This document shows positions 3,316 to 45,529 of a DNA stretch of 57,999 nucleotides, one piece after another; the stretch's first letter is position 1, and each line of letters begins with the position of its first letter. Location of the stretch: positions 1 through 57,999 of the IMG/VR virus record IMGVR_UViG_3300031962_000004; one strand, written 5' to 3'. Source of the DNA: a virus. The notes under the pieces were generated by a model. That model saw nothing but the letters and a program-made list of their open reading frames with translations, searched no databases and was not told where the DNA came from. The position numbers were made by a program, and so were the translations under genes.

Positions 3316-3512
3316 GCATAGAGACCGAAGGACTAGGGCTGGCCGCGACTTCGCTTGAGCTGGCACGGGCTACGCTCGAACTAAAGGACCAGCGCGACCA
3401 ACTACTGGCATGGCTGAAATGGAGCGTAAGCCACGCCGATGAGTGCCTAGGCGACCATCCATTACAGATTGACGCAGCTAGGCGCCTTATCGCCGCTGCG
3501 GAGTCCCAATGA
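3312..3512 (+). CDS. Hypothetical protein, 66 aa
   Basis: ATG at 3312 in an ATGA overlap; internal start of track ORF 3291..3512. Confidence 0.55.
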   Translation: MSIETEGLGLAATSLELARATLELKDQRDQLLAWLKWSVSHADECLGDHPLQIDAARRLIAAAESQ

Positions 3513-4249
3513 CGCCCGCCAAGCAGGACGCCGGGGCGCTGGCACCGATCGAGCGCATCGACGTGGCCGCGCAACTCATGCAGGTGATCGCCGCGAACCC
3601 GACCGCTGGTGCCGAGAACCTGAAGGCGCTGCTCGACGGGATGGAGCGCATCACTAAGTGGCAGGCGGAGCAGGAGTTCACGGCTGCGTTCGCGCGGCTG
3701 AAGTTCCCGCCGTTCCGCAAGACCGCCAAGGGGCACAACGCTAAGTACGCGCCCATGGAAGACATCCAGGAGGTCATCGACCCGATCCTGGCCGCGGAGG
3801 GCTTCACGCTCACCTACTCATCCGGCGAGGCCAACGCCAAAGGCGAGATCCCCACCTTCGGGCTGCTCTCTCACGTCGCCGGCCACTCGCGGACTGGGGT
3901 GATCTACCTGCCGGCCGATGTGACTAAAACGCACAGCGGGTTCACCACCATGAACGCCTTGCAGTCGGTCGGATCGAGCACTTCCTACGGGATGCGGTAT
4001 GTCGCGAAGCTGATGCTGAATCTCCGGTTTGTTTCCGATGATGATGATGGCGCGGCCATCGGCTACATAAACCAGACGCGGATAGACAACATTGAAGACC
4101 TGATCCACGAGTGCGGCGAGCAGGTGCGCGCGCCGTTCCTGAACTTCGTTGGCGCCAAGGCGGTAAGCGAGATCCAGAACGGCGGGTACACAGCGGCAAT
4201 TAACTATCTGGTTGCTAAAAGGCGGCAGATTGCGGAGAAGGCAAAGTGA
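3509..4249 (+). CDS. erf: ERF-family single-strand annealing protein
   Basis: QSVGSSTSYGMRYVAKLMLNLRFVSDDDDG is the ERF signature region; lies next to an exonuclease gene. Confidence 0.8.
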   Translation: MTPAKQDAGALAPIERIDVAAQLMQVIAANPTAGAENLKALLDGMERITKWQAEQEFTAAFARLKFPPFRKTAKGHNAKYAPMEDIQEVIDPILAAEGFTLTYSSGEANAKGEIPTFGLLSHVAGHSRTGVIYLPADVTKTHSGFTTMNALQSVGSSTSYGMRYVAKLMLNLRFVSDDDDGAAIGYINQTRIDNIEDLIHECGEQVRAPFLNFVGAKAVSEIQNGGYTAAINYLVAKRRQIAEKAK

Positions 4250-4746
4250 AAGCGCTAGACCTTACCGGCCATCGCTACGGAAGATTAACTGTACTACGCC
4301 TGTTCGGACAGAAGGTGATTAACGGTGACACTAGGCGACTCTGGCTCTGTCGATGTGAATGTGGAAAGGAACTGAAAATTACCACTTCCCGTCTGCGCGC
4401 TGAGACGCGAGCATGTGTGAACTGTTCTCATCGCAAGCATGGCCATAGCGCGGGAGGAAAGGTATCGCCCGAATACAAGGTTTGGCAGGGTATGTGGCAG
4501 CGCTGCACAAATCCTCACTCGACCCGGTGGCGTCTCTATGGCTGGCGCGGGATTCGCGTCTGTAACCGCTGGCGCTCATTTGAGAACTTCTTTACAGACA
4601 TGGGGCCTAGGCCATCGGCGCGGCACTCAATCGACCGGATAAACCCGTGGAAAGGATACAGACCATCGAATTGCAAGTGGTCTGACCCGATTCAGCAACG
4701 GCATAGCAGAAGAGACTATGTTGCAGCGCATGGGAGGGTGGCGTGA
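4246..4746 (+). CDS. Conserved phage Zn-ribbon protein with a C-terminal DRIxxxxGYxPxNCxW motif (often annotated HNH/AP2-like); function unknown
   Basis: GHRYGRLTV...WLCRCECG...CVNC; SIDRINPWKGYRPSNCKWS. Confidence 0.45.
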   Translation: MKALDLTGHRYGRLTVLRLFGQKVINGDTRRLWLCRCECGKELKITTSRLRAETRACVNCSHRKHGHSAGGKVSPEYKVWQGMWQRCTNPHSTRWRLYGWRGIRVCNRWRSFENFFTDMGPRPSARHSIDRINPWKGYRPSNCKWSDPIQQRHSRRDYVAAHGRVA

Positions 4747-5477
4747 AGTTCTACGATGTGGACCCGCGCTCCGATGAGTGGCGACATTTGCGCCTGGGAA
4801 TACCGACCGCCTCACAATTCCACCGCATCCTAACACCGAAGACTCGCAAGCTATCCAGCCAGTCCGAAAAGTATATGTGTGAACTTTTGAGCGAATGGAT
4901 TACGGGCGAAGAGATCCATGTCACCGAGGGAGAGTCAGAATACAGGTCGATGTATATGCAGCGCGGCCAGGACATCGAGGACAAAATCTGGAAAGCCTAT
5001 GAGGCGTTCGCAGAAGTTGAGACCTCGCGCGGCGGCTTCTTTACTACTGACGACGGCATGATCGGGTGTTCACCGGACAGACTCATTGGAACGAACGGAG
5101 ACTTGGAAGCAAAAGCGCCTAAAATCAACACACAGGTGCGCTATGCTCTTTCGGGTCCAGATGAAGATTATATCTGCCAGCTTCAAGGGCGGCTCTACAT
5201 CCACGAGCGGGAGTTCGTAGAGATTTTTCCCTGGCACGAGCGGCTGTTCATCCCGCCTGTTCGCGTTTATCGCGATGAGAAGTTCATCGCGGACCTCAAG
5301 AGCACGCTGGCGGCGTTCGTGGACACGATGCTCAACTGCCGGGTGAAGCTGGAGCAGCGCTACGGCCCGTTCACGCGGCCGACGGCAGAGGAGCCGTACA
5401 GCGGCGGAGATTTCATTACACAGGAGGACGAGGACATGATTCTGAAAGACGTAAGGGAGAGACGGAATGCCCGTTAA
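4743..5477 (+). CDS. YqaJ/lambda-Exo-like recombination exonuclease (PD-(D/E)XK)
   Basis: SDEWRHLRLGIPTASQFHRIL; GCSPDRL; LEAKAPK; YICQLQGRLYI. Confidence 0.8.
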   Translation: MKFYDVDPRSDEWRHLRLGIPTASQFHRILTPKTRKLSSQSEKYMCELLSEWITGEEIHVTEGESEYRSMYMQRGQDIEDKIWKAYEAFAEVETSRGGFFTTDDGMIGCSPDRLIGTNGDLEAKAPKINTQVRYALSGPDEDYICQLQGRLYIHEREFVEIFPWHERLFIPPVRVYRDEKFIADLKSTLAAFVDTMLNCRVKLEQRYGPFTRPTAEEPYSGGDFITQEDEDMILKDVRERRNAR

Positions 5478-5751
5478 AAAAGAACGTGCAGTACTCGTGA
5501 CGACCGCTCACAGAGGAGTTTTCTTCGGCTATGCCGCCGAGACGGGAGGGGCGACAATTAAGTTGCGGAACGCGCGACTGTGTGTCTATTGGTCAGCAGA
5601 CCTGCGGGGCTTTATGGGGCTCGCATCGCATGGACCTAGTTCCAGTTGCAAAATCGGACCTGCTGCCGACATTGAACTGCGCGACATAACTTCGGTTTCG
5701 GAAGTGACTCCGGAAGCCGCTGATCGATGGGAGAAAGCCAAGTGGGCCTGA
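5467..5751 (+). CDS. Hypothetical protein, 94 aa
   Basis: Track ORF; 11-nt overlap with the upstream gene. Confidence 0.6.
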   Translation: MPVKKERAVLVTTAHRGVFFGYAAETGGATIKLRNARLCVYWSADLRGFMGLASHGPSSSCKIGPAADIELRDITSVSEVTPEAADRWEKAKWA

Positions 5752-6440
5752 TTCGCGGCGTGCTGCCCAATTGGGCTGAGGCATTCTCCGGCTACGGCGA
5801 CGGCGACGGCGACGGCGACGGCTCCGGCTCCGGCGACGGCTACGGCGACGGCTCCGGCTCCGGCTACGGCTACGGCTACGGCGACGGCTACGGCGACGGC
5901 TCCGGCTCCGGCTACGGCTACGGCTACGGCGACGGCTCCGGCTCCGGCGACGGCGACGGCTCCGGCTCCGGCTCCGGCGACGGCTACGGCTCCGGCTACG
6001 GCGACGGCTACGGCGACGGCTCCGGCTACGGCTACGGCTACGGCGACGGCGACGGCGACGGCGACGGCTCCGGCTCCGGCTACGGCGACGGCTCCGGCTC
6101 CGGCTCCGGCGACGGCTATTGGCGGCTTATCGCTGCGCGATTCGCCGCCGAATGGGAACACGTAAAGGGCTTCATCGCATTTTGGAAATCTGATAAGGAC
6201 GGCCTGCCATCAAATGGAGGCCATGAAACCGACAACGCCCGGCCTGGACTGGTGCGGACCATTAGTGGCCCGCTCGAAATATGCACGCGCCGCGCTTTGC
6301 ATGGAACTCTAAGTCCGGATAAGTGGAAAGGTGAGCGTCTGTGGATTGTGGCTTTGCGCGGAGAGATCCAGGGTCAAGATGACAAAGTTGGAGCGCTTGA
6401 GCGCGAGATTATTTGCGAGGTGACAAGTGCCACGAGCTAA
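5727..6440 (+). CDS. Protein with a 110-aa (Gly-Asp/Ser/Tyr)55 tract plus a globular C-terminal domain of about 105 aa
   Basis: Track ORF; alternative GTG at 5742 after GGGAGAA; C-terminal domain WRLIAARF...ICTRRALHGT...EREIICEV. Confidence 0.7.
   Translation: MGESQVGLIRGVLPNWAEAFSGYGDGDGDGDGSGSGDGYGDGSGSGYGYGYGDGYGDGSGSGYGYGYGDGSGSGDGDGSGSGSGDGYGSGYGDGYGDGSGYGYGYGDGDGDGDGSGSGYGDGSGSGSGDGYWRLIAARFAAEWEHVKGFIAFWKSDKDGLPSNGGHETDNARPGLVRTISGPLEICTRRALHGTLSPDKWKGERLWIVALRGEIQGQDDKVGALEREIICEVTSATS
5790..6119 (+). repeat. 55 in-frame hexanucleotide units GGC-(GAC|TCC|TAC)
   Basis: Every Gly is GGC; Asp GAC, Ser TCC, Tyr TAC, with only the final Tyr TAT. Confidence 0.95.
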
Positions 6441-6636
6441 AACCGCAGAGGAAGTAATCGACACGTACCTGAGCACAGCCACGCAGGCCAAGCTGGAGCG
6501 GCTGCAAAGCGACCTGCGGGCCGTACTGCGCTGGAAGTTCAATGTGGGTGCGGAGTCTGCGCCGACCAAGCGCGCCCGCAAGCCTAAGGACTCCGCGAAG
6601 CTCCCGCTGGCCGCGATAGGAGAGGGCAATGGCTAA
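6427..6636 (+). CDS. Hypothetical protein, 69 aa
   Basis: Track ORF; GTG start after GAGGTGA. Confidence 0.55.
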   Translation: MPRAKTAEEVIDTYLSTATQAKLERLQSDLRAVLRWKFNVGAESAPTKRARKPKDSAKLPLAAIGEGNG

Positions 6637-6847
6637 AGGTTATGACGTGAAGTGCGGAGAACTTGCCACGCTGTTCCTGGAAGATAAATATGGCGTGCCG
6701 CCTGTGGGCTCCGTGGACGGACTGGCGCAAGCTATCCAGGACGCGATAGAGGATTGGATGAGATTCGATGACGAGTTGGCCGGGCCGAAGGTGGCCGACA
6801 GCACGCCAGCAATTCAAACAGAGCGCGAGTCGCGGAGGAAGCCATGA
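6629..6847 (+). CDS. Hypothetical acidic protein, 72 aa
   Basis: Track ORF. Confidence 0.6.
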   Translation: MAKGYDVKCGELATLFLEDKYGVPPVGSVDGLAQAIQDAIEDWMRFDDELAGPKVADSTPAIQTERESRRKP

Positions 6848-6996
6848 TCGCCCTCGCTGCCGTATCCGCGCTTGCGCTCACCGCCTGGCTGCTCAACCGC
6901 TTCTGGCGCGCGCCGTGTATCCTCTGTGGCCGCAGCGACCGGGCCTGCCTTACATGTGCCAGGGAAGCGGACAAGCGAATGCGAGGCGCGCAATGA
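6844..6996 (+). CDS. Membrane-anchored CxxC...CxxC micro-protein, 50 aa
   Basis: ATGA overlaps at both ends; MIALAAVSALALTAWLL...CILCG...CLTC. Confidence 0.45.
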   Translation: MIALAAVSALALTAWLLNRFWRAPCILCGRSDRACLTCAREADKRMRGAQ

Positions 6997-7214
6997 GCAA
7001 CGTCCACATCTACACCGCTCCTTTGCAGTCCGCCACTCAGTTCGTGGACCGCAATATCAAGCCACCTATCTGGCATCGGAACAAGCCGCGTACGCCGATT
7101 CATTGCTGGGCCTGTTGGCGGCGCAGGTGGGCAAAGTACCTACGTGTCCAGGTGTACTATGACAGCATCCGCTTTTGGTGCGCTCCGGGACGCGGATGCA
7201 AAAAGGAACGATGA
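6993..7214 (+). CDS. Hypothetical Trp/Cys-rich protein, 73 aa
   Basis: ATG at 6993 in an ATGA overlap; same frame as track ORF 6768..7214. Confidence 0.5.
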   Translation: MSNVHIYTAPLQSATQFVDRNIKPPIWHRNKPRTPIHCWACWRRRWAKYLRVQVYYDSIRFWCAPGRGCKKER

Positions 7215-7504
7215 GACGGCGCCCCCGCACTGACGCGAACTCCATGGAGATCGTCAAGGCGCTCCGGCAGCTCGGCTGCTCAGTTCGCATCACCTCCGCG
7301 TTGGGCCACGGATTCCCTGACCTGGCTGTCGGCCGCGCTGGGGTTAATCTGTTCCTCGAGGTGAAGGATGGCACGCGCATCCCGAGCCAGCGCAAGCTCA
7401 AGCTGGATGAGCAGCGTTTCAAGGACACCTGGGCGGGCCAGTACTACGTGGTCGAGAGCGTTGAAGAGGCTGTGGATTACGTGTTGGCGGAGTGCGGACA
7501 ATGA
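7211..7504 (+). CDS. VRR-NUC / Holliday-junction-resolvase-like PD-(D/E)XK nuclease
   Basis: GFPDLAV...NLFLEVK (D...ExK); ATGA start at 7211. Confidence 0.65.
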   Translation: MRRRPRTDANSMEIVKALRQLGCSVRITSALGHGFPDLAVGRAGVNLFLEVKDGTRIPSQRKLKLDEQRFKDTWAGQYYVVESVEEAVDYVLAECGQ

Positions 7505-8672: not shown

Positions 8673-8749
8673 AGAACTGCCCAATCGAGCACGTTAACGA
8701 CTTGTGGGGGGTGCCTTCAACACCCTCCACGCCTCTTGAAGGGAGGCTG

Positions 8750-9205
8750 ATGGCCAGGAAGACTAAGCGTAAAGGTATTTCACTCGCGCTCCGATTCTCG
8801 GTGATGCGTCGCGATTTCTTCCAGTGTGTGTACTGTGGTCGCAAGCCACCCGCTGTAGAGGTGCATCTTGACCACATCGTGCCTGTGGCCAACGGCGGAG
8901 AGACTATCTCTCAAAATCTAAGAACCTCATGTCACGATTGCAACGCCGGCAAAGGTACCGCCCAAGCCGAGTCGATCCTCCAGCAGCAGCCAGTTGAGGT
9001 ATTTGTTACTGACGATTGGCCGCGCGGTGTAGTTGTCGCCGAAAACTCTAGACCTTTCCCTGTTCGCGGAAAGTACCACCTTGAGCGAGTTTTAGACTCA
9101 GTGGACCGCGCTTGGTGGTCGGCTTGGCGCAGACAATCGAGAGAGTTTGATATTGAGGGTCTATGCGATCCCGAATATCCGGAGGTTCTGGAGAGTGCCA
9201 AATGA
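8750..9205 (+). CDS. HNH endonuclease
   Basis: ATG at 8750 after GGGAGG; CVYCG...HLDHIVPVANGG...NLRTSCHDCNAGK. Confidence 0.8.
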   Translation: MARKTKRKGISLALRFSVMRRDFFQCVYCGRKPPAVEVHLDHIVPVANGGETISQNLRTSCHDCNAGKGTAQAESILQQQPVEVFVTDDWPRGVVVAENSRPFPVRGKYHLERVLDSVDRAWWSAWRRQSREFDIEGLCDPEYPEVLESAK

Positions 9206-14223: not shown

Positions 14224-14871
14224 ATGACTAAGGCATTTGCATACTGCCGCTGCTCGACCCTCACCAACTCCGAGGGCGACACCTTCGTGCGCCAGATGAA
14301 GGCCATCAAGAGCTATGCGGGGGCGAATGGTATCGAGATCGAGCGCGGGTTCGAGGAAGTGATTACGGGTTCGACGGAATGGGGCCAGCGCCCAGCGTGG
14401 GTTGAGATGATCCGCGCCATGAACGGAGTTCGCACCATCGTGATAGAGCGTCTAGACCGGCTGGCCCGCGATCTGATGGTGCAGGAGCGCATAATCACGG
14501 ATCTTAAGGAGCGCGGAATTACCCTCGTGTCGGCCGCCGAGCCGGATCTGTGCTCGAACGACCCCACGCGGAAACTCATGCGGCACATCATGGGGGCAAT
14601 TTCCGAGTACGACAAGAGCATGATTGTGGCGAAACTCAAGGACGCCCGGAACCGATCGCGGGCGGACAAGGGGAAGTGCGAGGGCCGTAAGCCCTTCGGA
14701 TACCGCGACGGTGAGCAGGACATCATCGAGGAGATGCAGAAGCTTCGTGCGCTGGGGCACTCTTATTCCTCGATCGCCGACCAGCTGAACGTGAAGAAAA
14801 TGCCGTCCCGCACGGGAGCCGAGTGGCACGCCCCGGTGGTGCGCACGGTGATGCTGAGGAACCGCATTTGA
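14224..14871 (+). CDS. Serine recombinase, short form (215 aa): resolvase-type catalytic domain plus only the start of a large-serine-recombinase 'recombinase' domain
   Basis: AFAYCRCSTLTNSEGD (catalytic Ser region); IVIERLDRLARD; GRKPFGYRDGE...SIADQLN...WHAPVVRTVMLRN. Confidence 0.85.
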   Translation: MTKAFAYCRCSTLTNSEGDTFVRQMKAIKSYAGANGIEIERGFEEVITGSTEWGQRPAWVEMIRAMNGVRTIVIERLDRLARDLMVQERIITDLKERGITLVSAAEPDLCSNDPTRKLMRHIMGAISEYDKSMIVAKLKDARNRSRADKGKCEGRKPFGYRDGEQDIIEEMQKLRALGHSYSSIADQLNVKKMPSRTGAEWHAPVVRTVMLRNRI

Positions 14872-37556: not shown

Positions 37557-39436
37557 TGCCGGATGTTTTCGATGAAATCGCTCCGTCCCCCTCGTCGTCC
37601 AAGGGCGACGTATTTGATGAGATCGCTCCCGACAAGGAAAAGAAAAAAGGAAAGAGCCAAGTCGGAGAATTCTTCTCTACCCTCGGAAGCGACATCTTAG
37701 ACATCCCTGGAGCCGTATACGGAGCGGCAAAGGATCTGCCGGGGACGCTGAAGGGTATGGAGTCCGCTCGCGAGGGGGAAGTAGAGGCCGGTGCGCAGGC
37801 GTTCAAGAAAGGCCAGTACGGAGAGGCTATCCGGCGCGGAGTGTTCGGCCAGATCCCCGTCATTGGTCCCGCGCTCTCGCAGGCTGGCACGGAAGCGGGG
37901 CGCGGGGAGTACGGCAAGGCGGCCGCCCACGCTCTGGAACTTACTCCCGTACCGGAATTAGCGGCCCGTGGTGCTTTGCGGCTCGGAAAGACAGCGGCGG
38001 TTGCCGCTAAAGGCAAACTCACTCCTAGGACCGTTCTCAACCCCAAGGAAGCACAGGCGATAGAGTTTGCCGAGAAACAGGGAGTACCTACTACTGTTGG
38101 TCAGAGAACCGGACAACTTGGGTTACAGAAGATGGAGCGTGGCCTTGAAAACTTCCCTGGTTCCGCATCGAAAACAGAGGATTTCTTCAAGGGTCAGCAG
38201 GCCAAACTAGCGGAGACAGGCGAGAAGTTGACACAGCGGGCATCGCCAGTCAAGACTAATGCCTACGGCGCCGGTAAACAGGTACAGGATGCGCTTTCGT
38301 ATCGCGTCACGCGGCTGAAGACCCAAGCCGATCGACTATACGATCAAGTACGCTCAGAAGCTGCCGCGAACACCAAGACTGTCCAAACAGGGCTCCAGAC
38401 CTCTCCGGTGGTTGGTCCATCCGGTCAGCCGATAACCACACCCGTCTTCAAAACGCTCGAAACCCCGGTGGAGTTAGCGCCCATACGTGATGCACTCAAG
38501 CCAGTCTTTGACGACCTAGAAAGGTCCCTGCCGGAAGCCCGTCGCGCGAACTCCCCTGCGTTCCGTGCACTGAGCGATGTTATGAAGTCCACCGAAACGC
38601 ACATGAACGCGATGGACTTCGACCGCTTCTTGAGCGCGGTCAAATCGATGTCGCGCGATGGAAAAAGCGAACTACTAACATCTAAGTCTCAGGGAATCGC
38701 CCGTAAGATCATCCAGGAAGGGGAAAGTCAGTTCCAGGCCGCGATGCAGACGGCAGGACCAGACACGATGGACAAACTTACCAAGGCTCGCGGAATGGTC
38801 AAGGCGTACTACGGGACAGACGAACTACTCAACTCACTGAGAGACGAACCAGCCGCTCTCTATAAGAATCTGGTGTCCGGTGGCGACGTGACCTTCAACA
38901 CCCTCCAGGAGCTTCGCAAGGTGGCGCCTCGCTCAGTGAATGTCGTCGGCAGGACTTTCCTGGAAGGGCTATTGAGCAAGGCTACTGCTGAGGGTGGATT
39001 CGGGAGGAGCGCCGGGGTACTTGCCGACTGGCAGCGCATGGGCCCGGAAACCAAGCAATTGCTATTTGGACCACAACTCACTGCCGACATGGACAAGTAC
39101 CTGCTTGCCGCTAAGCGCCTTACTCCGGTTGAGGGTTCTGCAACGGCTGGACGCATCTCGACACTGCTTCCATTTGGGATCGGAGCGGAGGTGGTTCGTC
39201 AGATTCTCACCGGGAATATAGCGGGCGCTGGCTTGACGGTAGCCGGTGGAGCGGCGATGGAATACGCCATACCGAATATCGCAGCACGAGTCCTATTCTC
39301 ACAGGACGGGGCGAGGTTGGCAGCGAGGGCTTTAACGCTTCCGCCTGGGTCTTCGGCATGGAATAGCGTGACTCGCAGGCTATTCACGGCGGCGCGCGGA
39401 GCCCAGATCGCCACCGAGAACCGCGACGAACAGTGA
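37556..39436 (+). CDS. Large Ala/Gly/Lys-rich protein, 626 aa (internal/ejection or tape-measure-like candidate)
   Basis: Track ORF; GTG start; N-terminal duplicated DVFDEIAP. Confidence 0.5.
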   Translation: MPDVFDEIAPSPSSSKGDVFDEIAPDKEKKKGKSQVGEFFSTLGSDILDIPGAVYGAAKDLPGTLKGMESAREGEVEAGAQAFKKGQYGEAIRRGVFGQIPVIGPALSQAGTEAGRGEYGKAAAHALELTPVPELAARGALRLGKTAAVAAKGKLTPRTVLNPKEAQAIEFAEKQGVPTTVGQRTGQLGLQKMERGLENFPGSASKTEDFFKGQQAKLAETGEKLTQRASPVKTNAYGAGKQVQDALSYRVTRLKTQADRLYDQVRSEAAANTKTVQTGLQTSPVVGPSGQPITTPVFKTLETPVELAPIRDALKPVFDDLERSLPEARRANSPAFRALSDVMKSTETHMNAMDFDRFLSAVKSMSRDGKSELLTSKSQGIARKIIQEGESQFQAAMQTAGPDTMDKLTKARGMVKAYYGTDELLNSLRDEPAALYKNLVSGGDVTFNTLQELRKVAPRSVNVVGRTFLEGLLSKATAEGGFGRSAGVLADWQRMGPETKQLLFGPQLTADMDKYLLAAKRLTPVEGSATAGRISTLLPFGIGAEVVRQILTGNIAGAGLTVAGGAAMEYAIPNIAARVLFSQDGARLAARALTLPPGSSAWNSVTRRLFTAARGAQIATENRDEQ

Positions 39437-40200
39437 GGTTCTCTACAACATCTCTAGCGGAATTAAGTACGTGCGGAGAGCGTTACCGCCAGCGCTACGT
39501 CCAGCAGATCCGCACGGCCCCAAACTTCAACCGCATCCTGGGGCGCGCGGTGGACGCGACCGTAACCCAGGACCTGCAATCCAAGATCGAGACGGGAGAG
39601 TTGCTTAAGCCTAATAATGTAACGGAGATCGCGAGACTGCAAGTTGAAACCATAATAAGACTCGACGGGATCTCGCTCACGGAAGCCGAAGCCGCCAAGG
39701 GGATGAACCGCGTGCGGACGGAACTTACGCAACTGGCGGTCCAGATGAGCCAGCTTCATCATTGCTATATCGCTCCGCGCCTGGTTCCCACGCAGGTGCA
39801 GCGTGATTTCGAGATCCAGATCGCGGGCCACACGATCACCGGCAGGATTGACATACAGGAAGGGAGCCGCGCGATTCGCGACACCAAGGTCAGCGGGCGC
39901 TCCCCCTCCTCCGATGAGGCGGATCGCAGTTTGCAGTTGACGATCTACGCGATGGCGTGCGCGCAACTCGATGGAAGAATCCCGGATCGCTTGTATCTGG
40001 ACTACCTCATCCACACGACCGATCCGCGCGTAGTAAAGCTGGAGACGACTCGGGCGCGTCACCATTTCCATGCGGTCGAGGAGAGGGTGCTCGCGGCGGT
40101 TAAGGCCGTAGAGAGCGGAGTGTTCCTGCCGGCTAATCCTGATGCTTGGTTCTGCTCTGAACGATACTGCGCCTACTTCGCGGGATGCAGGTACGTTTAG
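39433..40200 (+). CDS. Cas4/RecB-family PD-(D/E)XK exonuclease with a 4-Cys cluster
   Basis: N-terminal Cys (LSTCGERY); GRIDIQEG..IRDTKV; QLTIY; C-terminal CSERYCAYFAGC. Confidence 0.7.
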   Translation: MRFSTTSLAELSTCGERYRQRYVQQIRTAPNFNRILGRAVDATVTQDLQSKIETGELLKPNNVTEIARLQVETIIRLDGISLTEAEAAKGMNRVRTELTQLAVQMSQLHHCYIAPRLVPTQVQRDFEIQIAGHTITGRIDIQEGSRAIRDTKVSGRSPSSDEADRSLQLTIYAMACAQLDGRIPDRLYLDYLIHTTDPRVVKLETTRARHHFHAVEERVLAAVKAVESGVFLPANPDAWFCSERYCAYFAGCRYV

Positions 40201-41252: not shown

Positions 41253-41758
41253 ATTTTCTTGGCGATGAACACGATTCCGTAGTCGGTCGGATCAGGGCAG
41301 GTATCTAAGATGATCTCATAATCCATAAGATTGAGGACTTCACGAGATATTTCTCCCACCTCCGGCTCGTGCTTATGAGCCAAGTTGGGAGGCTGTCCTC
41401 CAGTAATGGCTTTGGCCCATCTGTGTTTTTCGGGAGCCAGGATAATCAGGTGTCCTCCGAACTGCAGAACGCTATCCCATTCCTTCAGAAGCTCCGGCCA
41501 CTCCCCGATATCGAAATCTTCAATCAGGTGGCTAGAGTAGACGAAAGTCAAACAGTTCCTTCTAAACCACCATAGCTTTCGTCCATCTCCTCTAAGGTGG
41601 ATCGGTCCAGGACCGATCAGTGGGCAGTACGGTTTCTGCAGGTCGATCTGGATAGCGTGTGGAACCACGGGATCGCCAGCGCTCCCGATGTCTACACCAG
41701 CCCCGGTACAGTAAGGCGCGGTCAGGTGGCGATACTTTGATGTCTCGCTAGTCGCCAT
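41249..41758 (-). CDS. Class I SAM-dependent methyltransferase
   Basis: GAGVDIGSAGDP (motif I-like); FVYSSHLIEDF; LQFGGHLIILAP. Confidence 0.7.
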   Translation of the reverse strand: MATSETSKYRHLTAPYCTGAGVDIGSAGDPVVPHAIQIDLQKPYCPLIGPGPIHLRGDGRKLWWFRRNCLTFVYSSHLIEDFDIGEWPELLKEWDSVLQFGGHLIILAPEKHRWAKAITGGQPPNLAHKHEPEVGEISREVLNLMDYEIILDTCPDPTDYGIVFIAKKI

Positions 41759-42503
41759 ACGTTTCCTTCAGCTCCCGCTGAATCCAGTCAGGTGTCGATT
41801 CGCTACCCATCCGGTAGGTGATCGCGAACTCTTCCGTGTGGCGTCCGTCCGAGTACACCGCTCCCGCGATCTCCCGGTCGAAGAATTCCTCGTGCGAATG
41901 CACCCCCACGCGTCCGATGTTACGTGCCCTCGACACCAACGGGTAGAGCGACTTCCATCCGTACTCGTGCATCGCCATTGCGAGCGACCAGTCCCAGCCC
42001 AACTGAGTCTTGAGCTGGCGGTTCCACTCTGGGCGCATCCGTTCCCACTGTGCGCGGCTAAAGCACCACGCCGATGTGTAGATGGACCGGCACTCGTGGA
42101 TCTCTCGGTAGTTCTCGTCGCGGGGGACCACCTTACGGTAGTGCGGGTCACCGAGAGAGCAGAAGGCGTAGTCCTCGGCGTCCCACATCCCATAAAACCA
42201 GTCGGCTAGTTCCAGTGCGTCTGGAGAAAGGATTACGTCGTCTTCAAGCGCGACGTTGAAATCTACATCGTTGGAGCGGTCAAACACCGCGTTGTAGCAC
42301 TTCGCGTTGTGGTGGTCGATCCCGTAGTGGTTTTGTAGGTACACTATCTCCCATGAGGGAGGCACCTTGATCTTGAGTGGACTCCCGCCGTCAACAGATA
42401 CCAGCACTGCATAGTTGTCGACACCACGGCAGTCGATCAAAGCATGGATGCACTGCTCTAGATACTCCGGTCGATTGTACGACAGTATAGTCACTGTGCG
42501 CAT
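41748..42503 (-). CDS. GT-A fold glycosyltransferase (GT2/GnT-I-like)
   Basis: ATG at 42503 after GAGAGG; VTILSYNRPEYLEQCIHAL; LEDDVILSPDA (DxD). Confidence 0.7.
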   Translation of the reverse strand: MRTVTILSYNRPEYLEQCIHALIDCRGVDNYAVLVSVDGGSPLKIKVPPSWEIVYLQNHYGIDHHNAKCYNAVFDRSNDVDFNVALEDDVILSPDALELADWFYGMWDAEDYAFCSLGDPHYRKVVPRDENYREIHECRSIYTSAWCFSRAQWERMRPEWNRQLKTQLGWDWSLAMAMHEYGWKSLYPLVSRARNIGRVGVHSHEEFFDREIAGAVYSDGRHTEEFAITYRMGSESTPDWIQRELKETYGD

Positions 42504-42561
42504 TGATCCATTGCCTCTCGCTTCCGCGCATACATCCGTCTCCAAATGCGGTTATGGCATT

Positions 42562-43260
42562 TCATGTCCAGCCCTTGGCTTCCTTTACTTTCTGCCAATG
42601 AGTTATATAACGCCTGTCTTCCGGGTTGCGCCAGATACCGCCGTTGTAGTGGACTACGGGAGCCTCGATGGGACCGTCCGCATCCTCGTATCCCCACATG
42701 GTCTGAAAGATCCGGCGCTCGGAGTCGATCACGGCGCCGGGCAACTGGCCTGTTAGAAAAGAGTTGATCCAGATGGGCTGATCGTTGATCTCCTGGATGA
42801 TCTCGCTCGCCTCGATCATTCTCTCGATCACGTCAATCAGATAGCCGACTTGGCCGAACCATGTTCCCGCGTTGATAAAGCGGTACGGTCCCTTCACCTT
42901 TGGGTATAGCATCTCGTACTCTGGATGCGGCCAGCAGTTCTTTTCCGCACTCAACACGAGGGAAGGGCACCCGAGCAACTCCCATCCTCCAACGATCTCG
43001 CCCTCTCCGCCCTGGAGAAAGGTATCGAATCCGTCCGACCATAGCGCGTGGGTGTAGGCTTGGGTTTCCTGGATGAGTTTCAGGTGCTCCAGGGCCGCGA
43101 CCATCTTACCCACTCGCATGTCGCCCGACGCTGGCCACACGCCGTTCAGTTCGGCGGCTTGGCAGAATCCCAGATCGACATTATTGAGACGGCAAGACTC
43201 GGTGAGGATCGCGGCAAACTCCGGCTTTTCGTAACATGCGGATAGAACGCAGATGTTCAT
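42562..43260 (-). CDS. Putative glycosyltransferase (nucleotide-diphospho-sugar transferase-like)
   Basis: ATG at 43260 after GGGGA; WSDGFDTFL; SAEKNCWP; RFINAGTWFG. Confidence 0.5.
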   Translation of the reverse strand: MNICVLSACYEKPEFAAILTESCRLNNVDLGFCQAAELNGVWPASGDMRVGKMVAALEHLKLIQETQAYTHALWSDGFDTFLQGGEGEIVGGWELLGCPSLVLSAEKNCWPHPEYEMLYPKVKGPYRFINAGTWFGQVGYLIDVIERMIEASEIIQEINDQPIWINSFLTGQLPGAVIDSERRIFQTMWGYEDADGPIEAPVVHYNGGIWRNPEDRRYITHWQKVKEAKGWT

Positions 43261-43385
43261 TGCGTCATCCCCACGCAAACTGCACCTTGGTGAGTTTGTC
43301 CAGATCAAAAATTCGGAGATCGTCATGGTAGCGTGGGTTGTACGCCGCTAACATGAGTGGCGTGAACCCGATTATCTTGAGGCGC

Positions 43386-44174
43386 TTAGACATCCTTCAC
43401 TGGCCTCCACTTTCTTGCGCGAGCCCCCTTGGCGGCGTGCTTCGCCCGCTCCTCTACGATCTTGGGGATAGTATCGGTCGCATACGCCTGCCAGAAATCC
43501 TCTTCCTGCTGCCGCCATAGCAGCGCCCTGTACGCTTTGGACACCCTTCGCATGGCTTCCGTCATGGCTCGCACGGTCTCGACCAAGCCCGCGAAGGAAC
43601 TGATCCGCAGGCGTGGCAAGAATGCAGGTGGGATCTCCACTCGGTTGATGACGCCCTTTCCCCACCGGACCTGAATGTGGACCGTGATCTCAGGCAGACC
43701 GCGGGACGGATCGCGGTTCGACCACCAGGAACGGAATAGCAACAGGCGCCGTCGCATCTCGGAACGCCGAGGTAGGATGTCGGACGCCATTTCCTTCCCC
43801 TCGCGGATATCGGATTCGAGCATCTCCATCCGCCGACACATCGTCGGCGAGGGAGTATAGTGGCCCGAAATCAGAAACCGGAGCGTGCGCCGAGTGATCC
43901 CCAAGAGTCCAGATAGGCGGTGAAGCGAGAGCCCCTGCATTTCCGAAAGGGCCTTAATCCTACCCGGTTGCCAGTCCTTAACGGCCTCGTGGTAGGCTTT
44001 AGAGCGCTGCTGACGCCATTCGTTCGGGTTCATGAGGACCTCAACGACGCGGTTTCTCTGCATCTGGCGCCACTGAAAACGGTAAGTTGAGGGTACATTC
44101 TTCCGTTTCCGGCGCTCTCCACCATCGTAGTATAACGGTCCCTTATTTCGATGTTGGTGCTTTGAAAGAGTCAT
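43386..44174 (-). CDS. Arg-rich protein with a helix-turn-helix segment
   Basis: LSLHRLSGLLGITRRTLRFLISG. Confidence 0.55.
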   Translation of the reverse strand: MTLSKHQHRNKGPLYYDGGERRKRKNVPSTYRFQWRQMQRNRVVEVLMNPNEWRQQRSKAYHEAVKDWQPGRIKALSEMQGLSLHRLSGLLGITRRTLRFLISGHYTPSPTMCRRMEMLESDIREGKEMASDILPRRSEMRRRLLLFRSWWSNRDPSRGLPEITVHIQVRWGKGVINRVEIPPAFLPRLRISSFAGLVETVRAMTEAMRRVSKAYRALLWRQQEEDFWQAYATDTIPKIVEERAKHAAKGARARKWRPVKDV

Positions 44175-45529
44175 TTATTTGCAACAACCTGCACGTTGGG
44201 AGCGGGTTTTGAGTAGTCAATTATCATGGCTGCGGCAATCGCGTCAATAATTGCACTGGCGGTCCACCCTTCCGTCTTTGTCTCCCGGTAGTAGGTTACA
44301 TGGGGTCCGTACCAGCGATCACGGTCGCGGGGGGTCCCCAAAATTTGCGTCTGTGGCATGAACTGGGATTTTACGTCCGGACCAAAGTCTCTGACCGAGT
44401 ACTTCCAATCAGAACGGCACGGCAGCAGTAGAAGGGTCGGAACCCCGAGAAGTGCGGCCAAGTGGAAGCCAGCCGTATCTACCGCCACCACCAGATCCAT
44501 GGATAAGATGTAGCTGGCCGTCTCGTGCCAAGTGGCTAGTTTTTCTTCTTCCTGGATCACTCGCTGCGGCACGCGGAATTTGTCGAACTTATGAAGTCCC
44601 TTATTCTGTGGGCACAGCCCGTAGACGGGTCCGTACTTCGCCAGTTCCTTGGCGACGACTCCCGCCGTGTGATCATCTAGCGATCGGATCTTGCGGACGC
44701 TACCGTTCTCCTCGGCTCGCCAGCAATAGCCGATCCGCGGCGGGTCATGATGAATTCTAGGGACTCGCTCGTGGCTCGGAAGAGTCTCAATGAAGGCGTC
44801 CCGCATCCCGTCAGGCGGAATGTCCGTCCACGACTTCATCTTAAATATGCCCGGGAGGCTCATGATCGAGATGCTATAGTCCCAGTCGGATGCCCGCACG
44901 GACTTCTTGAGTGGGATGATCTCGTTGACACCGAATCTCTTCCAGTCGCAGAAGTCGAGCAACTTATCCCACATCAGAATTCCGACGCGATCGGACATCT
45001 CGCGCACCTTGGGTATCCAACGGCTGAACAGGAAGGCGTCTCCGAACCCACCTTCGGGCACGATCAGTACGCGGGAATTCGGCTCTCCTCGCCACAGCTT
45101 CGTCATGGGCAAGGTTCCCCATGAAGCTGCGAAGCGGCCGGCCTCGAACGCTTCCCAGGAGTACTCGAACTGGCCGAGACGCATCAGTGAGTATGCGAAT
45201 CCAAGAAGAATCTGCTGCATCGAACCATGGGTTGTAGGGGTGGATTCCGCCACCCTGAGTGCCCGCTGAAAGATCGCAGGGACTTCTTGAAACTTTCCCT
45301 GATCGCTATATACCTGGGCGATGTTGTTCCAGACCTCCGCGCTTTTACCCTGCGTCAGCACCAAGCATTCGTGAAGCGTGTCCATCGCTCGTTCAAACTG
45401 ACAGCAACCGCGTTGCGCGGCGGATAGCACCAGAAGATTATCGATGGTGGGTTCCTTCTTAGCCTTCTTAGCTAGAAGCGGAAGTGCGCGGTGCGGGGCG
45501 CCGGCTTGCAGCATTTCAACGGCTGTCAT
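44171..45529 (-). CDS. TPR-repeat + GT9 (heptosyltransferase-like, GT-B) glycosyltransferase fusion
   Basis: N-terminal TPR-like helices (about 130 aa); RVLIVPEGGFGDAFLFSRWIP; DLVVAVDTAGFHLAALLGVPTLLLLP. Confidence 0.7.
   Translation of the reverse strand: MTAVEMLQAGAPHRALPLLAKKAKKEPTIDNLLVLSAAQRGCCQFERAMDTLHECLVLTQGKSAEVWNNIAQVYSDQGKFQEVPAIFQRALRVAESTPTTHGSMQQILLGFAYSLMRLGQFEYSWEAFEAGRFAASWGTLPMTKLWRGEPNSRVLIVPEGGFGDAFLFSRWIPKVREMSDRVGILMWDKLLDFCDWKRFGVNEIIPLKKSVRASDWDYSISIMSLPGIFKMKSWTDIPPDGMRDAFIETLPSHERVPRIHHDPPRIGYCWRAEENGSVRKIRSLDDHTAGVVAKELAKYGPVYGLCPQNKGLHKFDKFRVPQRVIQEEEKLATWHETASYILSMDLVVAVDTAGFHLAALLGVPTLLLLPCRSDWKYSVRDFGPDVKSQFMPQTQILGTPRDRDRWYGPHVTYYRETKTEGWTASAIIDAIAAAMIIDYSKPAPNVQVVANK

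What the first reader, a model, noticed from the sequence alone, without database searches (positions are those of the whole stretch)
5790..6119. Codon-invariant (Gly-Asp/Ser/Tyr)55 tract: 330 bp of GGC-(GAC|TCC|TAC) with no synonymous variation
Seen: 55 consecutive hexamers. Every Gly is GGC, every Asp GAC, every Ser TCC and every Tyr TAC, with only the last Tyr TAT. The second codon is K-M-C with GCC (Ala) never used. The order of D, S and Y is irregular, so this is not a simple higher-order repeat. The tract sits between a short N-terminus and a globular C-terminal domain of about 105 aa (WRLIAARF...ICTRRALHGT...). The gene lies in the recombination/early operon. Inference: all variation is non-synonymous and none is synonymous. 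That argues for very recent slippage or gene-conversion dynamics (a contingency-type length- and sequence-variable locus), or for a constraint at the DNA/RNA level. The peptide itself would be a disordered, acidic, Tyr-rich linker. It could be a substrate for modification by the phage glycosyltransferases, or a scaffold for condensates. The antisense (Ala-Val/Gly)n ORF (5586-6161) is a mirror artefact.
Basis: partly seen in the sequence, partly recalled or inferred. Interest (0 to 1): 0.65.

Follow-up and report, generated by a model that had tools for sequence, protein, structure and literature searches.

The report
Self-homogenising Gly-X repeat in phage gene
A phage early gene contains 55 back-to-back six-base units encoding Gly-Asp/Ser/Tyr with one codon per amino acid; the same holds in over a hundred related phages, as expected if repeat slippage or recombination keeps rewriting the array, and what the protein does with its conserved Sm-like partner gene is unknown.

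Summary
Window 5790-6119 is 55 hexamers, GGC followed by GAC, TCC or TAC. The only exception is the last codon, TAT. Given the window's own codon usage, the probability of this is about 1e-44.

It is a property of the whole gene family:
- In 134 non-identical homologous tracts (4363 interior units), fewer than 1% of units depart from their tract's majority synonymous base.
- Different tracts use different codons (GGC, GGG or GGT; NNC or NNT), with at least 15 and at least 6 whole-array switches on the family tree.
- The non-repeat part of the same genes uses mixed codons.
- Relatives with identical flanking DNA carry tracts of 21 vs 51 or 73/40/33 units that differ by block insertions and deletions.

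This is intragenic concerted evolution of a coding hexanucleotide minisatellite. Selection appears to hold Gly at odd positions and a Tyr/Ser/Asp mix at even ones. It is not codon selection, a DNA motif or targeted hypermutation.

The gene always follows a DUF6948 gene, which has a predicted Sm-like fold. Its C-terminal domain has a DUF7666-like fold. About a quarter of relatives lack that domain, so the tract is more than a linker. Function is unknown. The mechanism is known; the phage cassette is undescribed.

The parts
5467..5751 (+). DUF6948 gene, the conserved upstream partner, with a predicted Sm/LSm-like fold. Its stop overlaps the start of the tract gene.
   Evidence: Pfam PF22253, 83.4 bits against a cut-off of 27. 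AF2 pLDDT 84. All top 50 Foldseek PDB hits are Sm/LSm proteins, TM 0.42-0.69. It lies directly upstream in 82 of 86 homologous loci. More than 3552 homologues were found; the 51 aligned in A2 are 70-91% identical to it.
5727..6440 (+). ORF of the Gly-X tract protein (237 aa from ATG 5727; an alternative GTG start at 5742 follows a GGGAGA Shine-Dalgarno-like sequence).
   Evidence: The architecture of N-motif, tract and C-domain is conserved in homologues.
5748..5774 (+). Conserved N-terminal short motif LIRGVLPNW (family consensus: two hydrophobic residues, R-G-x, a hydrophobic residue, P-x-W).
   Evidence: Position counts over 59 of 93 complete N-termini: R 40/59, G and P 59/59 (both fixed by the G-x-x-P anchor used to align them), W 21/53. 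The motif is also present in tract-only relatives.
5790..6113 (+). Homogenised array of 54 hexamers, GGC-(GAC|TCC|TAC), encoding (Gly-[Asp/Ser/Tyr])54.
   Evidence: P about 1e-44 against window codon usage.
5831..5937 (+). Tandem 48-bp (8-unit) duplication inside the array, seen as a 59-nt exact repeat starting at 5831 and at 5879.
6114..6119 (+). Junction unit GGC-TAT. This is the conserved Gly-Tyr that precedes Trp of the C-terminal domain, and it lies outside the homogenised array.
   Evidence: Across the family, 66 of 98 minor third-base variants of the X codon lie in the last unit. GGCTAT is also the last unit in L011, L134, L040, L027 and L032.
6117..6440 (+). C-terminal globular domain (one helix plus a beta-sheet) with a DUF7666-like fold.
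   Evidence: AF2 pLDDT 92.1, pTM 0.84. Foldseek against BFVD finds DUF7666 proteins, TM about 0.6, E 5e-4. 9 of 73 relatives weakly hit PF24703. No PDB match. 274 clusters in 1.84 billion representative proteins.
5586..6161 (-). Antisense (Ala-Val/Gly)n ORF. It is a by-product of the repeat, not a gene.
   Evidence: The antisense of GGC-KMC reads GKM-GCC. In GGG-type arrays Ala would become Pro, while the sense peptide is conserved.

Best explanation
The tract is a coding hexanucleotide minisatellite inside a conserved phage early gene.

Shown: replication slippage and/or unequal recombination between units keeps duplicating, deleting and overwriting units. Each of the six positions therefore drifts to one base across the whole array (intragenic concerted evolution). 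Synonymous third bases are uniform within an array yet differ between arrays.

Inferred: two positions stay polymorphic, the first two bases of the X codon (G/T and A/C). I attribute this to selection on the peptide for Gly at every odd residue and a mix of Tyr, Ser and Asp at even residues. Order and length appear largely free.

The single TAT is the first codon of the unique flank, so it escapes homogenisation.

Function (inferred, low confidence): the product is a short docking-type motif, then a flexible Gly/Tyr/Ser/Asp low-complexity tract, and in this phage a DUF7666-like C-terminal domain. It is translated from a start that overlaps the stop of a DUF6948 gene with a predicted Sm-like fold. 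I propose the tract protein works with that partner as a multivalent or tethering element early in infection.
For: 1. Within-tract homogeneity is family-wide. In 134 unique tracts (4363 interior units) the minor third base is 0.96% for Gly and 0.64% for X.
2. Between tracts the codons differ: majority codon pair GGC+NNC in 110 tracts, GGG+NNC in 13, GGT+NNC in 5 and GGC+NNT in 6. Parsimony on the C-domain tree needs at least 15 and at least 6 whole-array switches. L033 (GGG+NNT) and L050 (GGG+NNC) have flanks 92% identical.
3. Within-gene control: the C-terminal domains of the same genes use mixed codons. Gly uses the tract's codon only 43% of the time, and Ser 18%.
4. Turnover signatures: block duplications are significant in 18 of 59 tracts. 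New unit types are amplified within single arrays: GGCTTA x5 in L166, GGTTCC x8 in L008, GGCACC x10 in L040, GGCGCC x10 in L054. Edge units are degenerate.
5. Relatives with identical C-domain DNA have tracts of 21 vs 51 units (L044/L045) and 73/40/33 units (L134/L135/L136). These share end blocks and differ by internal indels.
6. Composition is stable while order is not: X is Tyr 41±10%, Ser 32±13%, Asp 24±9%, other 2.6%.
7. The tract is coding, not a DNA element. It is in frame with a conserved N-motif and C-domain across the family.
8. It is not an assembly artefact. A hybrid-assembled Bradyrhizobium prophage shows the same pattern.
9. The cassette is conserved. DUF6948 lies upstream in 82 of 86 loci. 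All 55 DUF6948 loci with enough downstream DNA carry a tract ORF.
10. The same reasoning has been published for spidroin repeats (PMC3933166).
Against: - No reads were available, so slippage within a population is not observed directly.
- Tract order and length in short-read assemblies are unreliable. 43 of 142 loci have a contig end inside the tract. Part of the between-sample difference could therefore be assembly noise.
- Two pairs 99.6-99.8% identical, and a third with identical gene DNA, have identical tracts, so turnover is not extremely fast.
- Selection for a Tyr/Ser/Asp mix is inferred from constancy of composition, not measured.
- The rarity of Ala (GCC, 0.8% of units) could reflect selection against Ala or the lack of recombination between adjacent bases.
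- The functional part has no experimental or co-folding support. DUF6948 is Sm-like only at the fold level (TM 0.42-0.69) and shows no sequence similarity to Hfq.
Confidence: 0.75

Rival explanations
1. Translational selection: the tract needs so much Gly, Asp, Ser and Tyr decoding that only the optimal codon for each is tolerated.
For: GGC, GAC and TAC are the commonest codons for their amino acids in the window. GGC+NNC is the majority state, in 110 of 134 tracts.
Against: TCC is not the preferred Ser codon (24.5%, behind TCG). Related phages of similar GC content use GGG or GGT, or NNT, uniformly. L033 and L050 are 92% identical in their flanks but use NNT and NNC respectively. The non-repeat part of the same genes uses mixed codons.
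Confidence: 0.05
2. Targeted hypermutation (DGR-like or another mutator) diversifies only the first two bases of each X codon, and the rest of the unit is copied from a template.
For: Variation is confined to two of the six positions. NNC-type codons recall the AAC-to-NNC pattern of diversity-generating retroelements (own knowledge).
Against: There is no second GGCNNC array in the window that could act as a template. No reverse transcriptase was seen among the ORFs scanned, though not every ORF was scanned. The variable bases are essentially G/T and A/C rather than any base. Tract length varies as well, and rare unit types spread as blocks, which points to duplication rather than per-site mutagenesis.
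Confidence: 0.05
3. The array is a DNA- or RNA-level element (iterons, protein-binding sites, or a structure-avoiding spacer) and the peptide is incidental.
For: It sits in the early region about 3 kb upstream of a replication initiator gene. The RNA folds much less stably than dinucleotide shuffles, -134 vs -168 kcal/mol, z = +6.
Against: The nucleotide sequence differs between lineages while the Gly-X peptide is kept. The array is always a multiple of 6 nt and in frame with a conserved N-motif, and usually with a conserved C-domain. Low RNA structure follows automatically from a unit set that lacks GCC.
Confidence: 0.04
4. Assembly artefact: the tract's length, order or uniformity was produced by the assembler.
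For: The tract breaks assemblies. 43 of 142 loci have a contig end inside it, and so do 18 of 80 DUF6948-anchored loci. Several contigs have DUF6948 at one end and the C-domain at the other.
Against: Codon uniformity is seen in more than 130 independent assemblies, including a hybrid one. The window's longest exact repeat is 59 nt, so it is resolvable at k of 77 or more. This rival could affect only the exact unit count and order, not the phenomenon.
Confidence: 0.05
5. The tract is only a passive flexible linker between the N-terminal motif and the C-terminal domain.
For: It is 50% Gly, with variable length and order and stable composition. It lies between two conserved elements.
Against: About 16 of 58 relatives encode the N-motif and tract with 0-34 further residues and no C-terminal domain in any frame. 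Three others carry a different C-terminal domain. Tyr is always 18-65% of X, which a pure spacer would not need.
Confidence: 0.15

Closest known systems
Intragenic concerted evolution of silk (spidroin/fibroin) repeat arrays
   Same: Repeats are homogenised at the nucleotide level, including codon choice. They are more alike within a gene than between relatives. This is attributed to unequal crossing-over or gene conversion rather than codon bias (PMC3933166). Bombyx fibroin is also a Gly-X dipeptide polymer with X = Ala/Ser/Tyr (own knowledge).
   Different: There is no homology. The unit here is 6 nt rather than hundreds. The host is a phage. X is Tyr/Ser/Asp, with Ala nearly excluded. The array keeps two polymorphic positions while the other four are fixed.
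Bacterial contingency loci / coding VNTRs (simple-sequence repeats that change by slippage)
   Same: A tandem short-unit array inside a gene whose length differs among close relatives.
   Different: The unit is a multiple of 3, so there is no on/off frameshift switching. Clonal high-frequency variation is not shown, and three pairs 99.6-99.8% identical (or with identical gene DNA) have identical tracts.
DUF7666 (PF24703) viral proteins with repeat arrays
   Same: The C-terminal domain has the same predicted fold (TM about 0.6). As in those proteins, it is joined to a repeat array: ankyrin, pentapeptide or DUF4116 in BFVD hits, and pentapeptide repeats in sister proteins of this family.
   Different: The window protein does not reach any Pfam score for DUF7666. 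The array here is a low-complexity dipeptide repeat, not a folded repeat. DUF7666 itself has no known function.
Sm/LSm/Hfq proteins and their low-complexity partners or tails; FUS-type [G/S]Y[G/S] domains
   Same: The partner gene has a predicted Sm-like fold. The tract is rich in Gly, Tyr and Ser. In eukaryotic proteins that composition drives multivalent assembly, and LSm proteins bind short motifs of partners or carry low-complexity tails (own knowledge).
   Different: The resemblance is fold-level only, with no sequence similarity to Hfq. Ring formation, RNA binding and phase separation are all untested. The tract contains Asp and has no Gln, Asn or Arg.
Diversity-generating retroelements
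   Same: Variation is restricted to the first two positions of NNC codons.
   Different: There is no template repeat and no reverse transcriptase among the ORFs scanned. The base spectrum is not adenine-specific. Length varies.
Synthetic 'four-amino-acid code' binding libraries (KMT codon = Tyr/Ala/Asp/Ser; Fellouse et al. 2004, own knowledge; the title phrase is cited in 73 held papers)
   Same: The X codon is K-M-C, the natural equivalent of the KMT codon. Gly, Tyr, Ser and Asp are also the residues typical of antibody CDR-H3 loops (own knowledge).
   Different: This is a resemblance only, and nothing shows the tract is a binding surface. Ala, the fourth K-M-C product, is nearly absent (0.8% of units).

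Membership tests
Coding minisatellite under intragenic concerted evolution | Units more alike within an array than between homologous arrays, including synonymous sites | tested here: met
   Less than 1% minor third bases within 134 tracts. At least 15 and at least 6 whole-array codon switches between tracts. L033 and L050 differ in codon state.
Coding minisatellite under intragenic concerted evolution | Homogeneity not explained by the gene's or genome's codon bias | tested here: met
   P about 1e-44 against window usage. Same-gene C-domains use mixed codons.
Coding minisatellite under intragenic concerted evolution | Signs of unit turnover: block duplications, amplified variant units, degenerate edge units, length differences among close relatives | tested here: met
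Contingency (phase-variable) locus | Repeat length changes switch expression on and off (unit not a multiple of 3, or located in a promoter) | tested here: not met
   The unit is 6 nt and the array is in frame across the family.
Contingency (phase-variable) locus | High-frequency variation within a clonal population | not testable with these tools
   No reads. No informative same-sample pairs were found. Three pairs 99.6-99.8% identical (or with identical gene DNA) have identical tracts.
DUF7666 (PF24703) | Pfam HMM match at or above the gathering score | tested here: not met
   The window domain has no hit at E up to 1. 9 of 73 relatives have weak hits, best E 5e-4.
DUF7666 (PF24703) | Same fold | tested here: met
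   Foldseek against BFVD: DUF7666 proteins at the top, TM 0.58-0.63, probability 1.00. The query is a predicted model and so are the targets.
DUF6948 (PF22253), upstream gene | Pfam HMM match at or above the gathering score | tested here: met
   83.4 bits against a cut-off of 27, profile positions 2-85 of 85.
Sm/LSm/Hfq superfamily (for DUF6948) | Sm fold (N-terminal helix plus a bent five-stranded sheet) | tested here: inconclusive
   All top 50 Foldseek PDB hits are Sm/LSm, but E is only 2e-3 to 4e-2 and TM 0.42-0.69. The model has strands first and a helix at 48-55. hhalign against E. coli Hfq finds nothing.
Sm/LSm/Hfq superfamily (for DUF6948) | Ring oligomer that binds RNA | not testable with these tools
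   No multimer prediction or experiment was available.
Diversity-generating retroelement target | Reverse transcriptase plus a template repeat near the variable repeat; adenine-specific changes | tested here: not met
   The array is the only one in the window. No RT in the ORFs scanned. Variable bases are G/T and A/C.
Collagen-like (Gly-X-Y), RTX (GGXGXDXUX) or pentapeptide repeats | Period of 3, 9 or 5 residues | tested here: not met
   The period is strictly 2 residues, or 6 nt. Pentapeptide repeats occur only in sister proteins.
FUS-like low-complexity / phase-separating domain | Aromatic 'stickers' in a Gly/Ser-rich disordered sequence | tested here: met
   Tyr is 41±10% of X, so about 20% of residues. 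Gly is 50%. This is composition only.
FUS-like low-complexity / phase-separating domain | Forms condensates | not testable with these tools
   Needs experiment.

The most novel reading that the evidence does not exclude
The DUF6948 protein forms an Sm-like ring. The conserved N-terminal motif of the tract protein docks on it, giving a particle with several Gly/Tyr/Ser/Asp tails. This particle nucleates a phage-made condensate or RNA/ssDNA-protein hub in the early replication/recombination phase. Fast slippage-driven change of tail length and Tyr/Asp content tunes its material or binding properties, or evades a host factor. On this reading it would be a natural, self-diversifying minimal-alphabet interaction module in thousands of uncultured environmental phages.
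Probability: 0.12. Interest if true: 0.85.

Novelty: new variant of a known kind. Interest (0 to 1): 0.55.

Why it matters
This is an unusually clean natural case of concerted evolution in a virus. The unit is only six bases. Four positions are frozen by homogenisation and two appear to be held polymorphic by selection. More than a hundred independent arrays show the process repeating.

It also exposes an undescribed two-gene cassette: a DUF6948 gene with a predicted Sm-like fold, followed by a Gly-[Tyr/Ser/Asp]n protein. The cassette is found in many uncultured phages and in prophages of Bradyrhizobium and Rhodopseudomonas, and in no cultured phage in the INPHARED collection. DUF6948 alone has more than 3500 homologues. 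The closest ones (the 51 aligned) are 70-91% identical, which points to a conserved target.

In practice, the tract is a recurrent breakpoint of phage metagenome assemblies. About 20-30% of contigs end inside it, and some circular genomes are 'opened' there.

Tried and rejected
- PDB sequence search with the family profile hit only artificial Gly-Ser linkers and other low-complexity segments.
- Foldseek against PDB gave no match for the C-domain.
- PHROGs, PADLOC and NCBIfam gave nothing for the tract protein, its C-domain or DUF6948.
- The INPHARED phage collection has no match to the C-domain, to DUF6948 or to the 2.8-kb DNA.
- hhalign of DUF6948 against E. coli Hfq found no similarity.
- Literature searches for DUF7666, DUF6948 and six heptapeptides of the tract found nothing relevant.
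- Rfam and tRNA scans of the window were empty.
- The closest relative (L001/L081, 91% aa identity in the C-domain) could not be used to compare tracts, because its contig starts inside the tract.
- A search for same-sample contigs with identical flanks and different tracts (heteroplasmy) found no informative pair.
- My first regular expression for the C-domain motif was too strict. My first frame choice also misread GGG-type arrays, whose +1 frame also reads Gly-X. Both errors inflated the 'no C-domain' class and were corrected.
- RiPP precursor, RTX, collagen-like and DNA-mimic readings were considered. They were dropped because there is no modification enzyme in the cassette, the period is wrong, or Asp is absent from some tracts (L054).
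Full report
**1. The observation**

Window 5790-6119 is 55 consecutive hexamers: GGCGAC x20, GGCTCC x18, GGCTAC x16 and one final GGCTAT. Tandem Repeats Finder reports period 6, 55.0 copies and no indels. The array lies in ORF 5727-6440 (+), 237 aa. A GTG at 5742, preceded by GGGAGA, is an equally plausible start.

In 39 other long ORFs of the window, GGC is 34% of Gly codons, GAC 57% of Asp, TCC 24.5% of Ser and TAC 68% of Tyr. Given the peptide, the observed codon choice has probability about 1e-44. The non-repeat C-terminal part of the same gene uses GGC x4, GGA x5 and GGT x2 for Gly, and no TCC among its 6 Ser codons.

The unit order is YDDDDSSDYDSSYYYDYDSSYYYDSSDDSSSDYSYDYDSYYYDDDDSSYDSSSDY. 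It is close to random except for one tandem duplication of eight units, seen as a 59-nt exact repeat at 5831 and 5879. No other GGCNNC array exists in the window.

**2. The gene and its surroundings**

Upstream on the same strand lie four genes:
- an Erf-type annealing protein (3509-4249)
- an HNH endonuclease (4246-4746)
- a YqaJ-type exonuclease (4743-5477)
- a DUF6948 gene (5467-5751), whose stop overlaps the start of the tract gene

Downstream lie a replication initiator, the large terminase subunit, the portal protein and the major head protein. The window is therefore a phage, and the gene sits in its early region.

The C-terminal 107 residues have no Pfam, PHROG, PADLOC or NCBIfam family and no PDB relative by sequence or fold. 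They nevertheless fold confidently, with AF2 pLDDT 92 and pTM 0.84. The model matches predicted structures of viral DUF7666 proteins, with TM about 0.6 and E 5e-4. Nine of 73 relatives hit PF24703 weakly. I therefore describe the domain as having a DUF7666-like fold, not as a scored member of that family.

**3. The family**

The C-domain has many relatives:
- 78 homologues in the protein database
- 153 loci in IMG/VR
- 79 in JGI metagenomes
- 9 in GTDB genomes, including Rhodopseudomonas infernalis, Bradyrhizobium, Sphingomonas, Pseudolabrys, Opitutaceae, Planctomycetaceae and Myxococcales
- 274 clusters at 50% identity among 1.84 billion representative proteins

Nearly all have the same layout. 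A short N-terminal motif comes first (two hydrophobic residues, R-G-x, a hydrophobic residue, P-x-W). A (Gly-X)n tract follows, with median about 33-35 units and a maximum of 80. Then comes the domain. The window's 55 units are in the upper range.

**4. The codon pattern is a property of the family**

In 134 non-identical tracts (4363 interior units), only 0.96% of units depart from their tract's majority Gly third base. Only 0.64% depart from the majority third base of X (earlier counts).

The majority state differs between tracts: GGC+NNC in 110, GGG+NNC in 13, GGT+NNC in 5 and GGC+NNT in 6. On a tree of the C-domains, parsimony needs at least 15 changes of the Gly codon and at least 6 of the X third base. 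L033 (GGG with GAT/TCT/TAT) and L050 (GGG with GAC/TCC/TAC) have flanks 92% identical.

In the same genes the C-domains use mixed codons. Gly uses the tract's codon 43% of the time, Ser 18%, Tyr 48% and Asp 57%.

Of 98 minor X third-base variants, 66 lie in the last unit. In the window and several relatives that unit is GGC-TAT before TGG, the conserved Gly-Tyr-Trp junction.

A hybrid-assembled Bradyrhizobium prophage (L163) shows the same pattern, so it is not a short-read artefact.

**5. Signs of turnover**

- Long internal repeats of unit strings are significant in 18 of 59 tracts (about 3 expected at p ≤ 0.05). The window gives p = 0.07.
- Rare unit types are amplified inside single arrays, often as part of 12-18-nt or longer blocks. 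Examples are GGCTTA x5 in L166, GGTTCC x8 (plus GGTTTC x2) in L008, GGCACC x10 in L040, GGCTGC x8 in L024, GGCGCC x10 in L054, and a block of about 20 units carrying a GACGAC variant duplicated in L011.
- Contigs with identical or 99.7% identical C-domain DNA carry tracts of 21 vs 51 units (L044/L045), 73/40/33 units (L134/L135/L136), 42 vs 40 (L094/L096) and 32 vs 30 (L099/L105). The related tracts share end blocks and differ by internal block indels.
- By contrast, L063/L065 (99.8% identical) and L074/L077 (99.6%) have identical tracts, as do L106/L107, whose tract and C-domain DNA are identical. L058/L060 (99.4% over 4.1 kb) differ by one unit and one TCC/TAC change.

The tract therefore evolves much faster than its flanks. 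It is not shown to vary within a clone.

**6. Mechanism of the codon invariance**

The data fit intragenic concerted evolution. Slippage or unequal exchange can occur anywhere in the array, because every unit shares GGC and a third-position C. Each of the six positions is therefore homogenised on its own and drifts to fixation.

Persistent polymorphism at the first two bases of X in every array implies that selection maintains a mix of residues. X is Tyr 41±10%, Ser 32±13%, Asp 24±9% and other 2.6%, and Tyr is never below 18%. Order and length are largely free.

The same argument has been made for spidroin repeats, where homogeneous codons that codon bias cannot explain are attributed to concerted evolution (PMC3933166).

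Rivals:
- Translational selection is contradicted by the between-lineage codon states and by the within-gene control.
- A fixed DNA or RNA motif is contradicted by the same between-lineage differences.
- A DGR-type process lacks a template, an RT among the ORFs scanned, and the expected base spectrum.

The tract RNA folds less stably than dinucleotide shuffles, -134 vs -168 kcal/mol, z = +6. This follows from a unit set that contains GGC but almost never its complement GCC. It may contribute to the rarity of Ala. I could not separate that from selection on the peptide.

**7. A conserved two-gene cassette**

DUF6948 lies directly upstream in 82 of 86 loci that have enough upstream DNA. Erf, YqaJ and HNH accompany it in only 6-11 loci. 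Elsewhere the neighbours are RecT, DnaB and DNA methylases, with the same overlap of 10-28 nt between the two genes.

Starting from DUF6948 instead, all 55 loci with at least 1 kb of downstream DNA carry a Gly-X tract ORF. Of 58 loci that could be classified:
- 39 have the DUF7666-like domain
- 3 have a different C-terminal domain (L194, L205, L206)
- about 16 encode only the N-motif, the tract and 0-34 further residues, with the same codon uniformity

The constant core is therefore DUF6948 plus N-motif plus tract. The tract cannot be a mere linker.

DUF6948 has more than 3552 homologues. The 51 close ones aligned in A2 are 70-91% identical to the window's, whereas the C-domain's relatives are 38-68% identical. 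Its AF2 model (pLDDT 84) matches only Sm/LSm proteins among the top 50 PDB hits, with TM 0.42-0.69 and E 2e-3 to 4e-2. There is no sequence similarity to Hfq.

Sister proteins place the DUF7666-like domain at the N-terminus, followed by pentapeptide repeats. BFVD relatives carry ankyrin, pentapeptide or DUF4116 arrays. This domain is thus habitually joined to repeat arrays.

**8. Function (inference)**

The product is a short conserved motif followed by a flexible Gly/Tyr/Ser/Asp polymer, and it is always co-encoded with a small protein of predicted Sm-like fold. I propose that the motif docks on the partner and that the tract acts as a multivalent 'sticker-spacer' or tethering element early in infection. 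The optional C-domain would add a further activity.

Nothing here tests this proposal. I give it about 0.3 as a general statement and 0.12 for the specific condensate or hub version.

The K-M-C codon set equals the KMT 'four-amino-acid code' of synthetic antibody libraries, and Gly/Tyr/Ser/Asp are typical of CDR-H3 loops. Both points come from my own knowledge and are leads, not tests.

**9. Caveats**

The tract breaks assemblies. Forty-three of 142 loci have a contig end inside it, and so do 18 of 80 DUF6948-anchored loci. Several contigs have DUF6948 at one end and the C-domain at the other. Unit counts and orders from short-read assemblies, including the window's 55, should therefore be confirmed with long reads. 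The window's longest exact repeat is only 59 nt.

IMG/VR and the JGI metagenomes overlap, so duplicates were removed before counting.

**10. Verdict**

The alternative of a DNA/RNA constraint is not supported. 'Contingency locus' and 'linker' overstate and understate the case respectively.

The evolutionary mechanism is a known kind. The gene cassette is undescribed in the literature searched and absent from cultured phages in INPHARED.

Noticed in passing
L001, L003, L007, L010, L049, L161 and others; contig pairs L003+L173, L010+L175, L007+L183, L049+L200: The tract is a recurrent assembly breakpoint. 43 of 142 loci, and 18 of 80 DUF6948-anchored loci, have a contig end inside it. Several long viral contigs carry DUF6948 at one end and the C-domain at the other, which suggests circular or terminally redundant genomes 'opened' at the tract. 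An isolate genome (Rhodopseudomonas infernalis HC1, L161) is also broken there.
   Followed up: partly
L196, L201, L204, L214, L223, L228, L239, L240 (tract ORFs downstream of DUF6948): Tract-only relatives: the N-terminal motif plus (Gly-X)n, ending 0-34 residues after the tract, with no DUF7666-like domain in any frame nearby. They show the same one-codon-per-residue pattern.
   Followed up: partly
L194, L205, L206: After the tract comes a different conserved C-terminal domain (…QLKLFIKTFPDG..WP.D.Q.A..AGLDV.W…) in place of the DUF7666-like one. It was not identified.
   Followed up: no
P0208, P0253, P0260, P0275, P0283, P0323, P0334: Sister architecture: the same domain at the N-terminus, followed by long pentapeptide repeats (GANLxGANL…). 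In P0218 the repeats decay into SERSE repeats. P0250 and P0255 carry an unrelated N-terminal domain of about 200 aa instead.
   Followed up: no
P0078 (89 aa, reported on 6 contigs): The first ~33 residues of DUF6948 are fused directly to the last ~45 residues of the C-domain, with no tract. This is either a real deletion spanning the gene boundary and tract or a chimeric assembly.
   Followed up: no
window 5467-5751 and homologues P0079-P0198: The 51 close DUF6948 homologues aligned are 70-91% identical at the protein level, whereas relatives of the adjacent C-domain are only 38-68% identical. This suggests a strongly constrained interaction.
   Followed up: partly
window 41748-45529 (-): A minus-strand block with two glycosyltransferase-like genes (GNT-I/MGAT2-like at 41748-42545; PLOD GT domain at 42562-43326), an HTH protein (43386-44174) and a TPR-like protein (44171-45529). 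The PLOD-type GT is the collagen-glycosylating type. Nothing links it to the tract.
   Followed up: no
window 4246-4746, 8702-9202, 14224-14868, 39433-40200, 48028-49677: Two HNH endonuclease genes in the early region. A serine recombinase lies about 600 bp upstream of the terminase gene. A PD-(D/E)XK nuclease sits among the late genes. There is also a pectate-lyase-like (probable tailspike/depolymerase) protein.
   Followed up: no
window 5790-6119 (+), as RNA: The tract RNA is predicted to fold much less stably than dinucleotide-preserving shuffles (-134 vs -168 kcal/mol, z = +6), because GGC is abundant and its complement GCC is absent.
   Followed up: partly
window 1-57999: No tRNA genes and no Rfam family at gathering score in the whole window. 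No similarity between window 4743-7500 and any cultured phage in INPHARED.
   Followed up: yes
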